From IMG/VR virus record IMGVR_UViG_3300037468_000183, positions 1 to 64,000 of that record: 64,000 bases of DNA; one strand, 5' to 3'. A program made the translations under genes and the position numbers. This DNA is from a virus. Positions 49,615 to 60,904 of this stretch are shown one piece after another. How positions within the stretch are numbered: position 1 is the stretch's first letter; each line of letters starts with the position of its first letter. The notes below the pieces were generated by a model that saw only the letters and a program-made list of their open reading frames with translations, searched no databases and was not told the DNA's origin.

Positions 49615-50808
49615 TCACTTGCCGACGATCTCTTTGCCGGCAACCTTCGCCTCGGCGCGCTTCTCCAGCGCCACGCAGACGGCTTCCAGGTTCTCGGTCG
49701 TTACCTTCCGGAAGTTCTCGGCGTAGACCGCACGCAGAAGGTGCGGCATGTCGGCCTTGCCGTCCTTGCGATAGTACGGGAAGACCTGGACAAAGACCTC
49801 GCACCACTGCGCGAAGGCGTGGGCGGCCTTGCCTTCCATGTCCGCCATCTGGCCTCCGCCATGCGGCTTCGGGGCGGCGCTGCGCTCCACGGTGGCGCTC
49901 GTCATGGCGTGAAACTCCGCCTCCGCATCAGACAACGGCGGCTCGGTCGCGGGCGGTGGCTTGGACGCCGCGACGGGTGGCGGCTCCTCCTCGGCCAGGT
50001 CTTCGTCGTCGTCATCGTAGTCATCGTCATCGTCCGCGTCGTCAACGTGGCGGGCCGTCAGTTGCAACGGTTGGCCCGCGGCCAATGCCATCTGTTCCTC
50101 GGCCTCGACCTGCATCCGTGCCAACACCCACTCGGCGGCGGGCACGATCTTGACCAGGTCCTTGATGGTGCGATTGCGCCGGCCCGCAGCCTTATCCTCG
50201 TCCTTCCAGGCTGGCGTCGAGATGGATTGCTTGACGCGTAGCACGTTGAACAGGATGCCGTTGAGATGGCCGGCTTTGGTTTCGGCGTCCAGCAGACAGG
50301 CAGTGATGGAGACCAGATCATTAATGCTGTGTGTCTCCATCGTCACGAAGCCGACGAAGCCCGCCCGGATCAACTGCGGCACGATCATGCTCAGGCGCCC
50401 GACTTGCTTACAGCCGGGGTTGTCCTTCGCGCGCGTCTTGGTTCCGGTGTAGTACGGACACGGCCGTTCGCCATCGGCATAGTCGCCGTTGGCCGTGCGC
50501 CAGCGGTTCATTGTCTGACCGTCGCAACGATGCACCATACCGCCGTGGTCATATTCCTCAAACCACGTATTCCAATTCTGTTCCAGCGTCGCGAATGGCA
50601 GATAGGCCTCGATCAGCGCGGGCTTACCGCCGTATGCGGCATCGAAAGCGCGCTGCACATCCTGGCGTTCGCTCGTGAAACGCCAGTGATCCAGGTCGGG
50701 GCCGGGGCGCTTCGGGTCGGTCTTGGGGCCGCCCTTGCGGAGTTTGCCCAAGTCCGGGAACTTGGGCGTGATGTCCTGGCGTCTTGTCATGCCGACTATG
50801 GGTGACAT
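49615..50808 (-). CDS. Gp3-like (recombination directionality factor/SSAP-related) protein
   Basis: LGKLRKGGPK..DLDHWRFTS..HRCDG..CKQVGRL..METHS. Confidence 0.72.
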   Translation of the reverse strand: MSPIVGMTRRQDITPKFPDLGKLRKGGPKTDPKRPGPDLDHWRFTSERQDVQRAFDAAYGGKPALIEAYLPFATLEQNWNTWFEEYDHGGMVHRCDGQTMNRWRTANGDYADGERPCPYYTGTKTRAKDNPGCKQVGRLSMIVPQLIRAGFVGFVTMETHSINDLVSITACLLDAETKAGHLNGILFNVLRVKQSISTPAWKDEDKAAGRRNRTIKDLVKIVPAAEWVLARMQVEAEEQMALAAGQPLQLTARHVDDADDDDDYDDDDEDLAEEEPPPVAASKPPPATEPPLSDAEAEFHAMTSATVERSAAPKPHGGGQMADMEGKAAHAFAQWCEVFVQVFPYYRKDGKADMPHLLRAVYAENFRKVTTENLEAVCVALEKRAEAKVAGKEIVGK

Positions 50809-51476
50809 AAAAGTTCCTCCTCTGTATGCTCCTGTAACTTCTTGGCCTGCCACCTCGCGTTTGCCGCCGCGCTTTGCTTGGCCTTTCCATCCGGTGTAGC
50901 CAAGCGGACTTTGTGCGAGGCAGACATCTTGGCACGCGTCTCGGTGCTGTGTACGCGCCCCTTGATTGCAGCGCTGTGTTGGGCACGTGCCTCTGGATTG
51001 CTCATCTGAATTATTGCCGCGGCGCTTATCTTCTCGCGTGTCTCCGGGCTGACTACCTTGCCCCTCTGCGCCGCGCCTATCTTAGCGCGTGTTTCGGCAG
51101 TCTGCGTCCGCCCTCTCAGCATGGCGCGTATTTCGTCGCTATAGTGAACTCCCCTGCACGTCCTGGGGTGTGGAGCTATGTTATAACCATGCTCTCTGTC
51201 GTATGATCGTAACGTGTCCATCCAGTGTTGTTCGCGCTCGTCCAGCCGCGCCAAATCCTCGATGTGTTCCAGGACAATGATCTCGAAAGCCTCCCATCCG
51301 TACTTCGCAACGGCGCGATACAAAGGGTGCGGCTTCTTCCCGACCAAGCACCGATGTTGGTATATGCGCTCTCTGAGGCACTGCGCCTGACCCACGTACA
51401 CCTTGCCGCTTTCCACATGGAAGATGCCGTAGATGCCAGTAAACTTCCAGTCGCCCCAATACGCTTTCGGCATCAT
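50796..51476 (-). CDS. GIY-YIG homing endonuclease with NUMOD3 repeats
   Basis: GIYGI..VYVGQA..R..GYNI; ETRAKI/ETREKIS/ETRAKMS repeats. Confidence 0.9.
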   Translation of the reverse strand: MMPKAYWGDWKFTGIYGIFHVESGKVYVGQAQCLRERIYQHRCLVGKKPHPLYRAVAKYGWEAFEIIVLEHIEDLARLDEREQHWMDTLRSYDREHGYNIAPHPRTCRGVHYSDEIRAMLRGRTQTAETRAKIGAAQRGKVVSPETREKISAAAIIQMSNPEARAQHSAAIKGRVHSTETRAKMSASHKVRLATPDGKAKQSAAANARWQAKKLQEHTEEELLCHP

Positions 51477-52075: not shown

Positions 52076-52186
52076 TTACCTGAGTCCCCAGGCCGCGCCG
52101 GGTGACGCGGACACGACATAATACATGAATGCGCCGAATGCCACGCCGACGAGGAGCAGCAGAGCGGCGTCGATAAGACGGTTCAT
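52076..52186 (-). CDS. Small membrane peptide
   Basis: MNRLIDAALLLLVGVAFGAFMYYVV. Confidence 0.45.
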   Translation of the reverse strand: MNRLIDAALLLLVGVAFGAFMYYVVSASPGAAWGLR

Positions 52187-52407
52187 GCTTCCAGCCTAAT
52201 CTGAATCGCGGACTTGATTACCGCGGGCAAGTTGCTCCAGGCGATCAACGGCAGTGAGCGTTGCACCTTTGCGGGTCGCCACTGTATCCAAATGGCGGTG
52301 TTCATACGGGACAAATCAGGATTCGCCGTCACCTGATCTTCGCTGAAGAAATTCGCGTTTCCAGCACGTGAGCCGAGATGCAATGCTATCCACTGTGCGA
52401 TATTCAT
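52183..52407 (-). CDS. Hypothetical protein
   Basis: AAGGAGG RBS. Confidence 0.55.
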   Translation of the reverse strand: MNIAQWIALHLGSRAGNANFFSEDQVTANPDLSRMNTAIWIQWRPAKVQRSLPLIAWSNLPAVIKSAIQIRLEA

Positions 52408-52423
52408 ACCCCATCCTCCTTTT

Positions 52424-52528
52424 GCAGGTCTAGCGCGCCTTGCCCATACGCGACATGCGCAGGGTTGCAACCGCCCGGATGACCGGGGAGTAGCGCACCA
52501 CGAGTTGACACGTGACCCCTAGACCTGC
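52424..52528 (-). ncRNA. Structured RNA element, family 1, copy 1
   Basis: 10-bp closing stem; shares motifs and covarying stems with 52982-53084. Confidence 0.55.
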
Positions 52529-52574
52529 GCCCAAGCAATCATGCTCCGGCCGCCGATAAATGCGACTCGGTTGG

Positions 52575-52910
52575 TTATGATGGCGTATGCCGCCGCTTGT
52601 ATATGGCGTATGCTGCACGATTCAAGTGGCGTTTGCGCCACCCATCGTAGATGCCCCTGATCCAGAGGCCAAGACTCATACTTACATGAGATTGCTCCTG
52701 CCACAACTTGACTTTCAACGTCTCGCGCATCTGGTAATAACGGTCGTTTTGCGCCTTACCACCCAAAATCTCAAGCCATTTTGCTTCGCCTTCGGGTGTA
52801 CCAAATACGACAGTCTCACGCGCCAGCAGTACACGCTCCCACAACTCATCGAATTCTGCTTGTTCTTCGGGTGTAGGCTCTTGGCGCGTATCCTCTTTTT
52901 CGTCAAACAT
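52575..52910 (-). CDS. Hypothetical protein
   Basis: AAGGAG RBS. Confidence 0.6.
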   Translation of the reverse strand: MFDEKEDTRQEPTPEEQAEFDELWERVLLARETVVFGTPEGEAKWLEILGGKAQNDRYYQMRETLKVKLWQEQSHVSMSLGLWIRGIYDGWRKRHLNRAAYAIYKRRHTPS

Positions 52911-52981
52911 AGGTTTGCTCCTTCGATGCCAGCCTTTTGAGATGTCCGGCTGGCAGGGCGTGATATGCTTGCCGACCCACA

Positions 52982-53084
52982 GCGTCTAGTCAGGTCTGGC
53001 CCACATTGCCCACGGCGGCATGGTGTCCGTCAGGGTTGCAACCGCCCCGCTCACGCGAGGGAGTAGTGGACTTCTAGATGACGC
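52982..53084 (-). ncRNA. Structured RNA element, family 1, copy 2
   Basis: TACTCCC, GCGGTTGCAACCCTG, TGGGCAA, AGACCTG conserved; GNRA hairpin. Confidence 0.55.
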
Positions 53085-53293
53085 ATCGTCAGCTTGTCCC
53101 TGTCACCGGCGGCCGGTTGCCGGTTGGTTCTGTTTGCCTGACCACGTGGATCAGCGAGTGCGCTTACCAGCCGCCTGTATCATCATGCCATCGCACCTCC
53201 TGTCTGTCATCTCCCGCCCTGGCGTCAAGTGTGACACGCCGTGCAGTCACGCTCCGCTAGGGGATTGTCACGAGCAGGGCAGGATATTGGCCG

Positions 53294-53494
53294 CTATGCC
53301 TCTCCGCCGCACATCGCGACGATGCTCGTCAGGGCGTCAATGATCCGGCCCATGTCCCCCACGTTGCCCCAGGTGACATCATCCGGTGCGACCTCGCCCA
53401 TGTCGGCCAGATAATCCTGGACACGAGACAGGAGTTCGGTCGCCACGGCGGTGCGGGCGATGTAGGCATCAAGTGCGGCCTGTTTGGTGTACAT
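53294..53494 (-). CDS. Hypothetical early protein
   Basis: cgcaaccATG leader; PDDVTWGNVGD. Confidence 0.65.
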   Translation of the reverse strand: MYTKQAALDAYIARTAVATELLSRVQDYLADMGEVAPDDVTWGNVGDMGRIIDALTSIVAMCGGEA

Positions 53495-53510
53495 GGTTGC
53501 GTATCCTTCC

Positions 53511-53729
53511 CTATGCGATTCTGATGCAGTCATGCTGCACCTTGATCTTGCCTGCGTCGCACAGTGCGGCGATGATCTGCTGATACATATCCAGCGTCAT
53601 GCCGAACTCAGACATGGCGGCGTAGATGATGCCGCTCGGTGCGCCAGTCGGCCCGGCGTGTTCGGCAGCGTCCAGGATGGCCGCACAAGTCAGCCGGAGG
53701 ACCTTGATGGCCCGATCTTTGTCGGTCAT
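53511..53729 (-). CDS. Small winged-helix-like protein
   Basis: GAPSGIIYAAM..YQQIIAALCDAGKI. Confidence 0.6.
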   Translation of the reverse strand: MTDKDRAIKVLRLTCAAILDAAEHAGPTGAPSGIIYAAMSEFGMTLDMYQQIIAALCDAGKIKVQHDCIRIA

Positions 53730-53920
53730 GGTTGCGACTCCTGAAGGGGATGCACGAACTCCATCCCTCCGATGTCGTGCCGCTTGCACTGTGCCAATCC
53801 CTCAGCAATCAGCTTGTCCAGAACGGTCGGGTTGACGAAACCGGATGAATAACGGCCATCGAATCTGCGAATCGGTTCCTCGGTCAAGATTTGCAAAATC
53901 CGTTCACGCTCGTCGGTCAT
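53726..53920 (-). CDS. Small winged-helix-like protein
   Basis: RILQIL..VLDKLIAEGL. Confidence 0.55.
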   Translation of the reverse strand: MTDERERILQILTEEPIRRFDGRYSSGFVNPTVLDKLIAEGLAQCKRHDIGGMEFVHPLQESQP

Positions 53921-54186
53921 GGTTGCGACTCCTTGACAATCGCTGTGAAATAGCTCGTCTTGGGCCAATTGGCCCAGTCATCGCGGCTCGTCACGGTGCC
54001 GGGAATGTCGGCCGCGCGGAGCGCCTGCTCAACGCTGTTGGCCCACATTTCGGCGGTCTTCCCGAAGGCGTAGAAGTAGCTGCGCTTCAGTTCGATCTCG
54101 CCGGTTTTCTTGCAGACGATTTGGTCAGCGAAAACCGGGGCAACGTCCTGGATGAAGGTCTTGATGCGTTCCTGATACGGTGTCAT
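53917..54186 (-). CDS. Hypothetical early protein
   Basis: cgcaaccATG leader. Confidence 0.6.
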   Translation of the reverse strand: MTPYQERIKTFIQDVAPVFADQIVCKKTGEIELKRSYFYAFGKTAEMWANSVEQALRAADIPGTVTSRDDWANWPKTSYFTAIVKESQP

Positions 54187-54274
54187 GGTTGCGTGTCCTT
54201 TCCTGCGTGCTGCGGCGGGCATGGCCCTTCCGACCGGCGAAGGTCGGCGCTCGATGCCCGCCGCGGTTGTTGCG

Positions 54275-55322: not shown

Positions 55323-55351
55323 ACTATAGCACGTTTATACACGTTTGTCAA
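55323..55351 (-). promoter_or_regulatory. Leftward early promoter
   Basis: TTGACA-17nt-TATAGT with extended -10 TG. Confidence 0.78.
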
Positions 55352-58954: not shown

Positions 58955-59186
58955 GCGATGCAGGCACAGACGCCCGCCGTGTGCGCGGGGCGCGTCAGGG
59001 GATGGGGCGCTCCGCCACACGCCTGCAACGCATACCACCGGAAACGCGGCGCTTTGGGCAGCGTCGCGCGACCGGCGCACCTGGAGCAGATGACGTGCCT
59101 TGAGAAAGCCACAGCAACGTCACGGATGCGTTTTCCCTCCTTGTTCCGTGTCCGAAGGTCGAGTGTGCGCAGACCTGTCTGCTCCA
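58955..59186 (+). ncRNA. Candidate multi-stem ncRNA including family 2 element copy 1 (59082-59186)
   Basis: Own promoter, no credible ORF, consecutive stems. Confidence 0.5.
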
Positions 59187-60238: not shown

Positions 60239-60337
60239 GTGTGGCAGATGGCGCGCTGAACCTCCATCAGCCTGGCAGCGCCACCGGGGTTTGACATTGG
60301 CTGCGGAAGGTCGAGCGCGCAGACCTGTCTGCCACAC
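60239..60337 (+). ncRNA. Structured RNA element, family 2, copy 2
   Basis: 11-bp closing stem; shares GAAGGTCGAG..GCGCAGACCTGTCTGC with 59154-59182. Confidence 0.5.
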
Positions 60338-60615: not shown

Positions 60616-60904
60616 GGTTTTGAGGCAGTCGGATGGTGAGGGCGGGAGTAAGCGTGCCTACCCGTATTCACGGACAGGCACAGCAGAAACGAGTCGGACG
60701 GAGCCGGGTTGGTCGTTTCGCATCCGTAGGTCAGACGTGTCCAGGCGCAGCTTTACCACTTCCTACGGGCCTACTCTCTTGCGAGACTGCGGCGGTTTGC
60801 GGATGATCTGGATGGGCGAAGGTCACGCCGTTACCCGAAGGCCCAGGATAGGCAATCCCTGGTGTTGTGCTGCATATGGCGCTTGAATCGCCTACAGCAT
60901 AGCA
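60605..60904 (+). ncRNA. Candidate ~300-nt multi-branched ncRNA
   Basis: Nested stems forming a four-way junction plus two hairpins. Confidence 0.45.

What the first reader, a model, noticed from the sequence alone, without database searches (positions are those of the whole stretch)
52424..53084. Duplicated structured RNA motif with covarying stems in the early operon (family 1)
Seen on the minus strand: both copies read stem-TACTCCC-hairpin-GCGGTTGCAACCCTG-variable arm-TGGGCAAK-stem'-(Y)AGACCTG. Stem sequences differ but pairing is kept: GTGCGC/GCGCGC vs GTCCAC/GTGGGC, and CCCGG-TCAT-CCGGG vs CCTCGC-GTGA-GCGGGG (GNRA loop). Copy 1 ends 2 nt before an AAGGAGG RBS. Conserved loops with compensatory stems is the signature of a functional RNA. 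Inference: a new cis-regulatory element or self-cleaving ribozyme; the UGCAA loop and GCAAG bulge loosely recall twister-sister, but the topology differs.
Basis: partly seen in the sequence, partly recalled or inferred. Interest (0 to 1): 0.7.

Follow-up and report, generated by a model that had tools for sequence, protein, structure and literature searches.

The report
Duplicated structured RNA leader in phage
An uncultured 104-kb phage record carries two copies of an unclassified ~75-80-nt element that most likely folds as RNA in front of two small orphan genes; it is a real candidate for a functional RNA, but it was found nowhere else, so its function is still a guess.

Summary
Two collinear copies lie on the minus strand at 52425-52498 and 52991-53071. 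They share four invariant blocks of 8, 16, 7 and 7 nt, and the segments between the blocks differ yet keep pairing in three helices (P1, P2, P3). The blocks are not kept in one reading frame. Five G-U pairs fit only the sense strand. Rfam (gathering and E<=10) and ARAGORN find nothing, so twister-sister is not supported.

No homologue turned up in IMG/VR, JGI metagenomes, GTDB genomes or INPHARED. Covariation therefore rests on two sequences and is suggestive, not proven.

New points:
- Each copy precedes a low-GC orphan ORF with its own Shine-Dalgarno sequence.
- The "family 2" elements at 59-60 kb share a homologous ~23-nt 3' module ending in AGACCTG and a closing helix, so the four may form one superfamily.
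- The central block holds a perfect 10-nt palindrome found only in these two copies.

Best reading (0.38): a cis-acting intercistronic mRNA module bound or cut by a trans-acting protein, which sets processing, stability or translation of the downstream cassette. Rivals are a nut/put-like antiterminator, a DNA-level site, a ribozyme, a riboswitch and a self-pairing RNA. Interest is moderate to low until relatives or transcript data exist.

The parts
52425..52498 (-). F1 copy 1 core: P1 (6 bp), junction block, P2 hairpin (5 bp, UCAU loop), 16-nt central block, P3 (8 bp with a U bulge), CAAG, P1 3' strand, then the AGACCTG box (52425-52431)
   Evidence: model R1 hit at E 5.8e-22
52991..53071 (-). 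F1 copy 2 core: same order of blocks; P1 with two compensatory pairs, P2 of 6 bp with a GUGA loop, a longer P3, AGACCTG box at 52991-52997
   Evidence: model R1 hit at E 2.3e-24
52520..52528 (-). 5' strand of a perfect 9-bp outer helix that pairs with 52424-52432 (the box itself) and encloses copy 1 plus a 21-nt insert
53074..53084 (-). 5' strand of the outer helix of copy 2 (5 + 3 bp with a 3-nt bulge). Its partner is 52982-52989. The AGACCTG box lies in the 9-nt 3'-side internal loop
52463..52472 (.). Perfect 10-nt palindrome inside the central block of copy 1
   Evidence: only two occurrences in the 104-kb record, both in F1
53034..53043 (.). The same 10-nt palindrome in copy 2
52575..52910 (-). 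ORF111, downstream of copy 2. It has an AGGAG Shine-Dalgarno sequence, 51% GC and a basic C-terminal tail, and no relative
52183..52407 (-). ORF74, 17 nt downstream of copy 1. Its Shine-Dalgarno sequence is at 52415-52421, GC is 53%, and it matches no family
55323..55351 (-). Best sigma-70-like promoter of the leftward operon (11 of 12 matches, extended -10), about 2.3-2.9 kb upstream of the copies
53182..53210 (-). Weak promoter-like site (9 of 12) about 100 nt upstream of copy 2's outer helix; it may start a separate unit
   Evidence: consensus match only
59083..59185 (+). Family 2 copy 1: 10-bp outer helix, AGACC in a 3'-side bulge, P1, and a 3' module homologous to that of F1
60239..60337 (+). 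Family 2 copy 2: 12-bp outer helix, AGACC bulge, 6-bp P1, the same 3' module; it ends about 10 nt before a GGAGG Shine-Dalgarno sequence

Best explanation
F1 is a cis-acting structured module of the sense (minus-strand) polycistronic transcript. It sits in the two long intercistronic gaps in front of two orphan gene cassettes.

Proposed fold: a three-way junction (P1, P2, P3). Its junction strands are invariant, and a closing helix carries the AGACCUG box.

Proposed mechanism (inferred, not shown): the invariant junction and box form the docking or cleavage site for a trans-acting protein. This could be a host double-strand-specific endoribonuclease of the RNase III type, or a phage-encoded RNA-binding protein. 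Binding or cleavage just upstream of the Shine-Dalgarno sequence would set the 5' end, the stability and the translation of the downstream cassette mRNA. The four elements that carry the box (F1 x2, F2 x2) would answer to the same factor.

Shown: the repeat, its non-coding nature, its strand bias and the helices that keep pairing. Inferred: that it is transcribed, that it folds this way in the cell, and everything about the factor.
For: - Two collinear copies far above chance.
- Invariant blocks are separated by diverged segments that still pair.
- The frame is not conserved and copy 2 has stops.
- G-U pairs fit only the sense strand.
- The copies occupy the 383-nt and 167-nt gaps of an otherwise tightly packed operon.
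- Each copy lies upstream of an ORF with a strong Shine-Dalgarno sequence.
- The outer helices differ in sequence between copies yet both close the element. This argues for a structural constraint rather than a fixed DNA site.
- A homologous 3' module occurs in the four elements of the two divergent operons.
- The AGACCTG word occurs 12 times against 5.2 expected, and its only four intergenic sites on the elements' sense strands are these 3' ends; a fifth, at 52521 on the opposite strand, is the complement that forms copy 1's outer helix.
- Two of the four elements end 2-10 nt before a Shine-Dalgarno sequence.
Against: - There are only two sequences, both from one genome.
- The shuffle control on covariation is weak (58/500).
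- Folding energy is not exceptional.
- P3 of copy 2 is poorly supported thermodynamically.
- The box is paired in copy 1 but sits in a loop in the other three elements, so the base architecture is not uniform.
- No RNA-binding protein or nuclease was identified among the neighbours; all are orphans.
- A perfect palindrome in the conserved core is unusual for a junction strand and also fits a DNA site.
Confidence: 0.38

Rival explanations
1. Processive antitermination element of the nut/put type. The nascent RNA, alone or with a small basic phage protein such as ORF111, would modify RNA polymerase so that it reads through terminators in the early operons.
For: - Phage-specific cis RNA elements occur in both divergent early operons, with a shared linear box plus variable hairpins.
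- Copy 2 lies directly upstream of a 111-aa, poorly structured protein with an Arg/Lys-rich tail. This recalls nutL-N in lambda (own knowledge; N/Nun binding of nut RNA in PMC4496710).
Against: - No intrinsic terminator was found downstream of either copy on the minus strand.
- There are two copies 570 nt apart in the same operon, not one per operon.
- No boxA-like host-factor site was recognised.
- The P2 loops differ (UCAU vs GUGA), unlike boxB loops, which are the recognition element.
Confidence: 0.12
2. DNA-level element. The 10-bp palindrome would be a binding site for a dimeric DNA-binding protein. Alternatively the repeat would act as a recombination or shuffling sequence that flanks mobile orphan cassettes, as PeSL cassettes do in T4-type phages.
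For: - The central block holds a perfect 10-bp palindrome present only in the two copies. The chance of a palindrome in a 16-nt block is about 0.007, since palindromes occur at the random rate genome-wide.
- The copies flank or precede low-GC orphan ORFs, as PeSLs flank ORFans (PMC2839356, PMC4122927).
Against: - A 10-bp operator does not explain three further invariant blocks or the compensatory helices around them.
- The strand-specific G-U pairs argue against double-stranded DNA.
- The outer inverted repeats differ between copies and there are no target-site duplications, so the copies are not transposon ends.
- The motif contains no sigma-70 promoter or U-tract terminator, so it is not a PeSL.
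- No integron-type core sites are present (sequence read directly).
Confidence: 0.15
3. Self-cleaving ribozyme of a new class that cuts the polycistronic mRNA between cistrons.
For: An invariant junction core with variable helices and several copies in a phage operon is the usual look of small ribozymes (own knowledge). No known family matches, so a ribozyme here would be a new class.
Against: - No match to twister-sister, twister, hammerhead, pistol, hatchet or HDV models even at E<=10.
- Known ribozyme classes are widespread, whereas this motif was found in one genome only.
- No catalytic signature can be named.
Confidence: 0.08
4. Riboswitch: the junction binds a small molecule and controls translation of the orphan ORFs.
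For: The fold is a three-way junction with conserved junction strands and variable peripheral helices. Copy 1 abuts a Shine-Dalgarno sequence. The CUCC in the first junction block could pair with GGAG.
Against: - No conserved expression platform: copy 2 lies about 60 nt and one extra hairpin away from its Shine-Dalgarno sequence.
- The possible anti-SD pairing is not conserved between the copies.
- The downstream genes are unrelated orphans.
- Riboswitch classes are normally widespread; this motif was found in one genome only.
Confidence: 0.06
5. Self-pairing RNA. The exposed 10-nt palindrome would pair copy 1 with copy 2 on one transcript, looping out ORF111, or would pair two transcripts to build a dimer or higher assembly.
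For: - The palindrome duplex is -16.3 kcal/mol, against an opening cost of 4-7 kcal/mol.
- Predicted homodimers are 7-11 kcal/mol better than two monomers.
- Small natural RNAs, including phage-linked ones, do form homo-oligomers (bioRxiv 10.64898/2026.07.01.735769).
Against: - Any palindrome gives such numbers.
- Two nucleotides of the palindrome are needed for the base of P3.
- There are no data on oligomers.
Confidence: 0.07
6. Functionless remnant of a local duplication.
For: Only two copies, in one genome; no relatives were found.
Against: Neutral decay would not leave 38 nt in four blocks at 100% identity while the segments between them are saturated with changes and indels yet still pair.
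Confidence: 0.08

Closest known systems
RNase III processing signals in the early mRNAs of T7-like and SP82-like phages (own knowledge, not checked in a paper here)
   Same: Repeated, sequence-related irregular hairpins lie between cistrons of a phage early polycistronic mRNA. Two coaxial helices are separated by an asymmetric internal loop, and the elements sit just upstream of ribosome-binding sites.
   Different: The T7 sites are simple two-stem hairpins, not three-way junctions with a 16-nt invariant junction block. Cleavage has not been shown here, and the host and its RNase III are unknown.
lambda nut / HK022 put antitermination RNAs (PMC4496710 for N and Nun binding nut RNA; put from own knowledge)
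   Same: Phage-specific cis-acting RNA elements occur in several copies in the early operons. They combine a conserved linear box with hairpins whose stems covary. One copy lies directly upstream of a small basic protein gene.
   Different: No boxA or boxB was recognised. No terminator was found downstream. Two copies lie in the same operon. The hairpin loops are not conserved.
PeSL regulatory cassettes of T4-type phages (PMC2839356, PMC4122927)
   Same: Short repeated non-coding elements flank orphan genes in a variable part of a phage early region, and could serve as recombination points.
   Different: PeSLs are a sigma-70 promoter plus a terminator stem-loop conserved as sequence. F1 has neither, and its helices vary by compensation.
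   Same: A multi-helix junction with conserved unpaired nucleotides, in a phage setting.
   Different: No match to the covariance model even at E<=10. The topology differs, and no cleavage site can be named.
Family 2 elements of the same record (59083-59185 and 60239-60337)
   Same: They share a homologous ~23-nt 3' module (14 invariant columns), a GC-rich P1, a closing helix, and AGACC bulged on the 3' side.
   Different: Their upper domains are unrelated to the F1 junction and to each other, and they lie on the other strand in the rightward operon.

Membership tests
Any Rfam 15 family (4227 models, including twister-sister, twister, hammerhead, pistol, hatchet, HDV-like, riboswitches, EGFOA) | Score at or above the family's gathering threshold, or at least a marginal hit | tested here: not met
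   No hit in the window at gathering. No hit at E<=10 in 52300-53250.
tRNA / tmRNA-like element | Cloverleaf or tmRNA fold recognised by ARAGORN | tested here: not met
   No genes found in the window.
Protein-coding conservation | The blocks are kept in one open frame in both copies | tested here: not met
   Indels of 2 and 5 nt lie between the blocks. Copy 2 has no minus-strand ORF of 30 aa or more over it.
PeSL-type promoter/terminator cassette | A strong sigma-70 promoter plus a terminator stem-loop inside the repeat | tested here: not met
   No promoter-like or minus-strand terminator-like site lies inside either copy.
Integron attC site | Inverse core RYYYAAC at one end and core GTTRRRY at the other, at the 3' end of a cassette | tested here: not met
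   Read directly. The ends are the outer helices, which lack these cores, and the elements lie 5' of the ORFs.
MITE or transposon ends | The same terminal inverted repeats in all copies, flanked by target-site duplications | tested here: not met
   The outer inverted repeats differ between the copies and there are no duplications.
nut/put antitermination RNA | Location between an early promoter and a terminator that it overrides; boxA/boxB or the two-hairpin put fold | tested here: inconclusive
   An early promoter is found upstream. No minus-strand terminator lies downstream, and no boxA or boxB was recognised by eye. The function cannot be tested with these tools.
RNase III processing site | About 20 bp of coaxial double-stranded RNA, often with an internal loop; cleavage by RNase III | tested here: inconclusive
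   The outer helix (8-12 bp) plus P1 (5-6 bp), with an asymmetric loop, is seen in 3 of 4 elements. Cleavage cannot be tested here.
CRISPR repeat mimic (solitary repeat / RNA anti-CRISPR) | Near-identity to a host CRISPR repeat: hairpin plus a conserved 8-11-nt handle | not tested
   The resemblance is loose (hairpin followed by a block ending in AAC). The host and its repeats are unknown. A literature search for the 8-mer found it only at the 5' start of unrelated repeats. Pairing of P1 across the whole element speaks against this reading.

The most novel reading that the evidence does not exclude
F1 and F2 together would define a new, phage-specific class of modular RNA elements. All share a common base: a closing helix, an AGACC bulge, a GC-rich P1 and a conserved 3' module. 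A single factor would read this base in both divergent early operons. The F1 top would be a new three-way-junction domain with a function of its own: catalysis, ligand binding, or self-pairing through its 10-nt palindrome.
Probability: 0.15. Interest if true: 0.7.

Novelty: new variant of a known kind. Interest (0 to 1): 0.35.

Why it matters
If real, this is an unclassified structured RNA used four times by one phage to handle the expression of orphan "cassette" genes in its early operons. It would add a case to the small set of phage-specific cis RNA signals (nut, put, RNase III sites). It could also show how newly acquired genes are plugged into an operon together with a ready-made leader. 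Its present value is limited: it is known from a single uncultured genome, with no host, no transcript data and no relatives to test covariation.

Tried and rejected
**Known RNA families**
- Rfam at gathering and at E<=10 gave nothing.
- ARAGORN gave nothing.

**Pattern scans for the blocks**
- IMG/VR: one-gap and three-block patterns gave 0 hits. A loose two-block pattern gave 118+ hits, all chance on inspection.
- JGI metagenomes: 28 hits. Eleven are one HTH coding sequence and the rest are chance.
- GTDB genome contigs: 14 hits, all chance.

**Covariance model R1**
- It finds only the two copies in the 104-kb record.
- Nothing in five records with the nearest TerL.
- Nothing in five arbitrary genomes.
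- Two weak GC-rich chance hits in 151 Actinomycetota genomes.

**Searches through neighbouring proteins**
- ORF111, ORF74, the Gp3-like protein and an 801-aa tail protein gave no related IMG/VR locus.
- TerL relatives are at most 58% identical.
- INPHARED blastn and tblastn gave nothing useful.
- ORF111 has no relative among 5.8 billion protein clusters.
- The ESM Atlas gave no usable hit for either ORF.

**Other attempts**
- A generic scan for the shared base architecture gave 10 hits; shuffled sequence gave 6-16, so it has no discriminating power.
- Literature searches for the palindrome returned only primers and unrelated CRISPR repeats.

**Ideas rejected after inspection**
- Kink-turn at the AGACC bulge: no consistent tandem G-A.
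- tRNA-like T-loop in the central block: the stem is too weak and ARAGORN is negative.
- Conserved anti-SD pairing: present for copy 1 only.

Full report
**1. What is there**

On the minus strand, copy 1 spans 52425-52498 and copy 2 spans 52991-53071.

MAFFT aligns them over 82 columns at 85% mean column identity. Four blocks are invariant:
- CTACTCCC
- a 16-nt block centred on a 10-nt palindrome
- TGGGCAA
- AGACCTG

The segments between the blocks differ in sequence and length.

A Smith-Waterman comparison of the two whole intergenic regions scores 56. In 500 shuffles the score is 18.1 +/- 2.6, with a maximum of 29. The similarity reaches about 13 nt upstream of P1.

A single exact 16-mer repeat would not be significant in 104 kb (my estimate: about 2.5 such pairs expected by chance). 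The collinear set of four blocks is significant.

**2. It is not coding, and it is strand-specific**

The spacing between the blocks differs by 2 nt and by 5 nt, so the blocks are not in one frame. No minus-strand ORF of 30 aa or more covers copy 2. The 62-aa ORF over copy 1 has no counterpart at copy 2.

Three helices are kept:
- **P1** (6 bp) has two pairs changed on both sides.
- **P2** is a 5-bp hairpin with a UCAU loop in copy 1 and a 6-bp hairpin with a GUGA loop in copy 2.
- **P3** keeps a five-pair base with a bulged U, and its distal parts are different hairpins.

On the shared 16 pairs every cell is a standard pair. Three pairs changed on both sides and three on one side. Structures slid by 1-3 columns pair only 19-58% of cells. 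With two sequences the shuffle control cannot be strong (58 of 500).

The proposed fold costs only 3-4 kcal/mol more than the MFE. P1 and P2 are well populated; P3 of copy 2 is not.

On the opposite strand, 2 of 19 and 3 of 20 pairs would be C-A mismatches. This favours an RNA of the sense strand, or single-stranded DNA of that strand, over a duplex DNA site.

Folding energies are ordinary for this GC-rich sequence. The case therefore rests on the conservation pattern, not on stability.

**3. Setting**

The window is the first 64 kb of a 104,080-bp IMG/VR record.

A self-comparison shows that the record holds two related phage genomes in tandem. Region 16-40 kb is matched by 86-104 kb at 29-95% amino-acid identity (85-95% over the last 10 kb), and the second genome's early operon is cut off by the record's end. 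No second version of the F1 region is therefore available.

The best promoter pair is the divergent one at 55.3-55.45 kb. The leftward operon is tightly packed with small orphan ORFs. The two F1 copies occupy its 383-nt and 167-nt gaps.

Each copy precedes an ORF with a good Shine-Dalgarno sequence:
- ORF111 (52575-52910, 51% GC)
- ORF74 (52183-52407, 53% GC)

The record as a whole is 60% GC, and neighbouring genes have GC3 of 0.69-0.79. The two ORFs are unrelated to each other. ORF111 has no relative among 5.8 billion protein clusters. Both ORFs have low-confidence predicted structures. They look like acquired cassettes, each with an F1 leader.

**4. Known families and relatives**

Rfam gives nothing at gathering for the whole window, and nothing at E<=10 for 52300-53250. 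ARAGORN finds nothing. Twister-sister and every other curated ribozyme, riboswitch or leader family are therefore not supported.

I could not find one homologue:
- Block patterns in IMG/VR, JGI metagenomes and GTDB genome contigs returned only chance or coding hits.
- Model R1 finds only the two copies in the record. It finds nothing credible in the records and genomes I could reach.
- Protein-anchored searches found no close relative of this phage.
- INPHARED has nothing.

Transcript evidence and the second contig holding ORF111 were therefore out of reach.

**5. Link to "family 2"**

I compared the ends of the two families.

The last ~23 nt of all four elements align with 14 invariant columns. 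The order is a GG.C.A word, the 3' strand of a GC-rich P1, zero or one nucleotide, then AGACCTG.

AGACCTG occurs 12 times in the window against 5.2 expected. Its only intergenic sites on the elements' sense strands are these four 3' ends. The one further intergenic site, at 52521 on the opposite strand, is the complement that forms copy 1's outer helix.

Each element is closed by an outer helix whose sequence differs from copy to copy:
- 9 bp in F1 copy 1
- 5 + 3 bp in F1 copy 2
- 10 bp and 12 bp in the two F2 copies

In three of the four, AGACC lies in a 3'-side bulge between the outer helix and P1. In F1 copy 1 the box is itself paired with an upstream complement.

I read the four as one superfamily with a common base and different tops. 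This is an inference from four sequences in one record.

**6. The palindrome**

The central block contains a perfect 10-nt palindrome that occurs nowhere else in the record. Ten-nt palindromes are as common as chance predicts genome-wide (104 against about 102). Finding one in a 16-nt invariant block has a chance of about 0.007 and probably means something.

It could be:
- a site for a dimeric DNA-binding protein, or
- a self-pairing RNA segment. The duplex is -16.3 kcal/mol, the opening cost is 4-7 kcal/mol, and predicted homodimers are 7-11 kcal/mol better than two monomers.

Neither reading can be settled here. The other three blocks and the compensating helices are not explained by an operator alone.

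**7. Mechanism**

The most economical reading is a cis-acting intercistronic mRNA module recognised by a protein. The features that point this way:
- invariant unpaired junction strands
- a shared box at the base of four elements in both early operons
- closing helices that vary by compensation
- positions 2-10 nt before a Shine-Dalgarno sequence in two of the four elements
- restriction to one phage lineage, which fits co-evolution with a specific factor better than a widespread ribozyme or riboswitch class would

Stacked outer helix plus P1, with an asymmetric loop, resembles phage RNase III processing signals (own knowledge). A nut/put-like role is the main RNA-level rival. Copy 2 lies just upstream of a small, basic-tailed, poorly ordered protein, as nutL lies upstream of N. 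However, no downstream terminator was found. I give the protein-recognised processing or translation module 0.38, and "functional sense-strand RNA of some kind" about 0.6-0.65.

**8. Comparison and verdict**

The element is not a member of any curated family. It works most like phage intercistronic processing or regulatory signals. As repeats in front of orphan genes it also recalls PeSL cassettes (PMC2839356), but it lacks their promoter and terminator.

It is a new motif of a known general kind. The interest score should come down from 0.7 until relatives or transcript data exist.

Noticed in passing
whole record; window 16-40 kb vs record 86-104 kb: The 104-kb record holds two related but non-identical phage genomes in tandem. 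Tail and early genes are 29-95% identical at the protein level (85-95% over the last 10 kb). The packaging modules differ, and the second genome's early operon is cut off at the record's end. This may be a chimeric assembly or a true tandem.
   Followed up: partly
window 60723-60817 (minus strand): There is a sub-threshold Rfam hit to EGFOA RNA (RF02955): 27.4 bits against a gathering score of 37.7, E 0.021 in a 2.1-kb search. It lies in the ORF-free region upstream of the second packaging module. The EGFOA consensus loop contains a word close to the AGACCTG box, but in this hit that word is not kept.
   Followed up: partly
window 59083-59185 and 60239-60337 (+ strand): The family 2 elements have 10- and 12-bp closing helices that differ in sequence between the copies, a bulged AGACC, and a 3' module homologous to F1. 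A local AGGTC/GACCT hairpin could compete with P1.
   Followed up: partly
window 53721-53742 and 53912-53933; also 53492-53512 and 54184-54204: An identical 22-nt translation-initiation region (Shine-Dalgarno sequence, spacer, ATG and the first two codons) heads two adjacent small minus-strand ORFs. Similar versions head two more. The ORFs may be paralogues, or this may be a shared regulatory site.
   Followed up: no
window 53213-53283 (minus strand): A long hairpin (9-bp outer stem and 6-bp inner stem) lies directly after the stop codon of the 66-aa ORF, with no U-tract. After it come a weak promoter-like site (53182-53210) and a possible 11-codon mini-ORF (53151-53186) ahead of F1 copy 2.
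   Followed up: no
window 50796-51476 and 49615-50853 (minus strand): A free-standing GIY-YIG/NUMOD3 homing-endonuclease gene and a Gp3-like (recombination directionality factor-like) gene lie 1-3 kb downstream of the copies.
   Followed up: no
window 53105-53126 (+ strand): A terminator-like hairpin with a T-rich tail lies on the plus strand, antisense to the leader of F1 copy 2. There is no plus-strand gene upstream of it.
   Followed up: no
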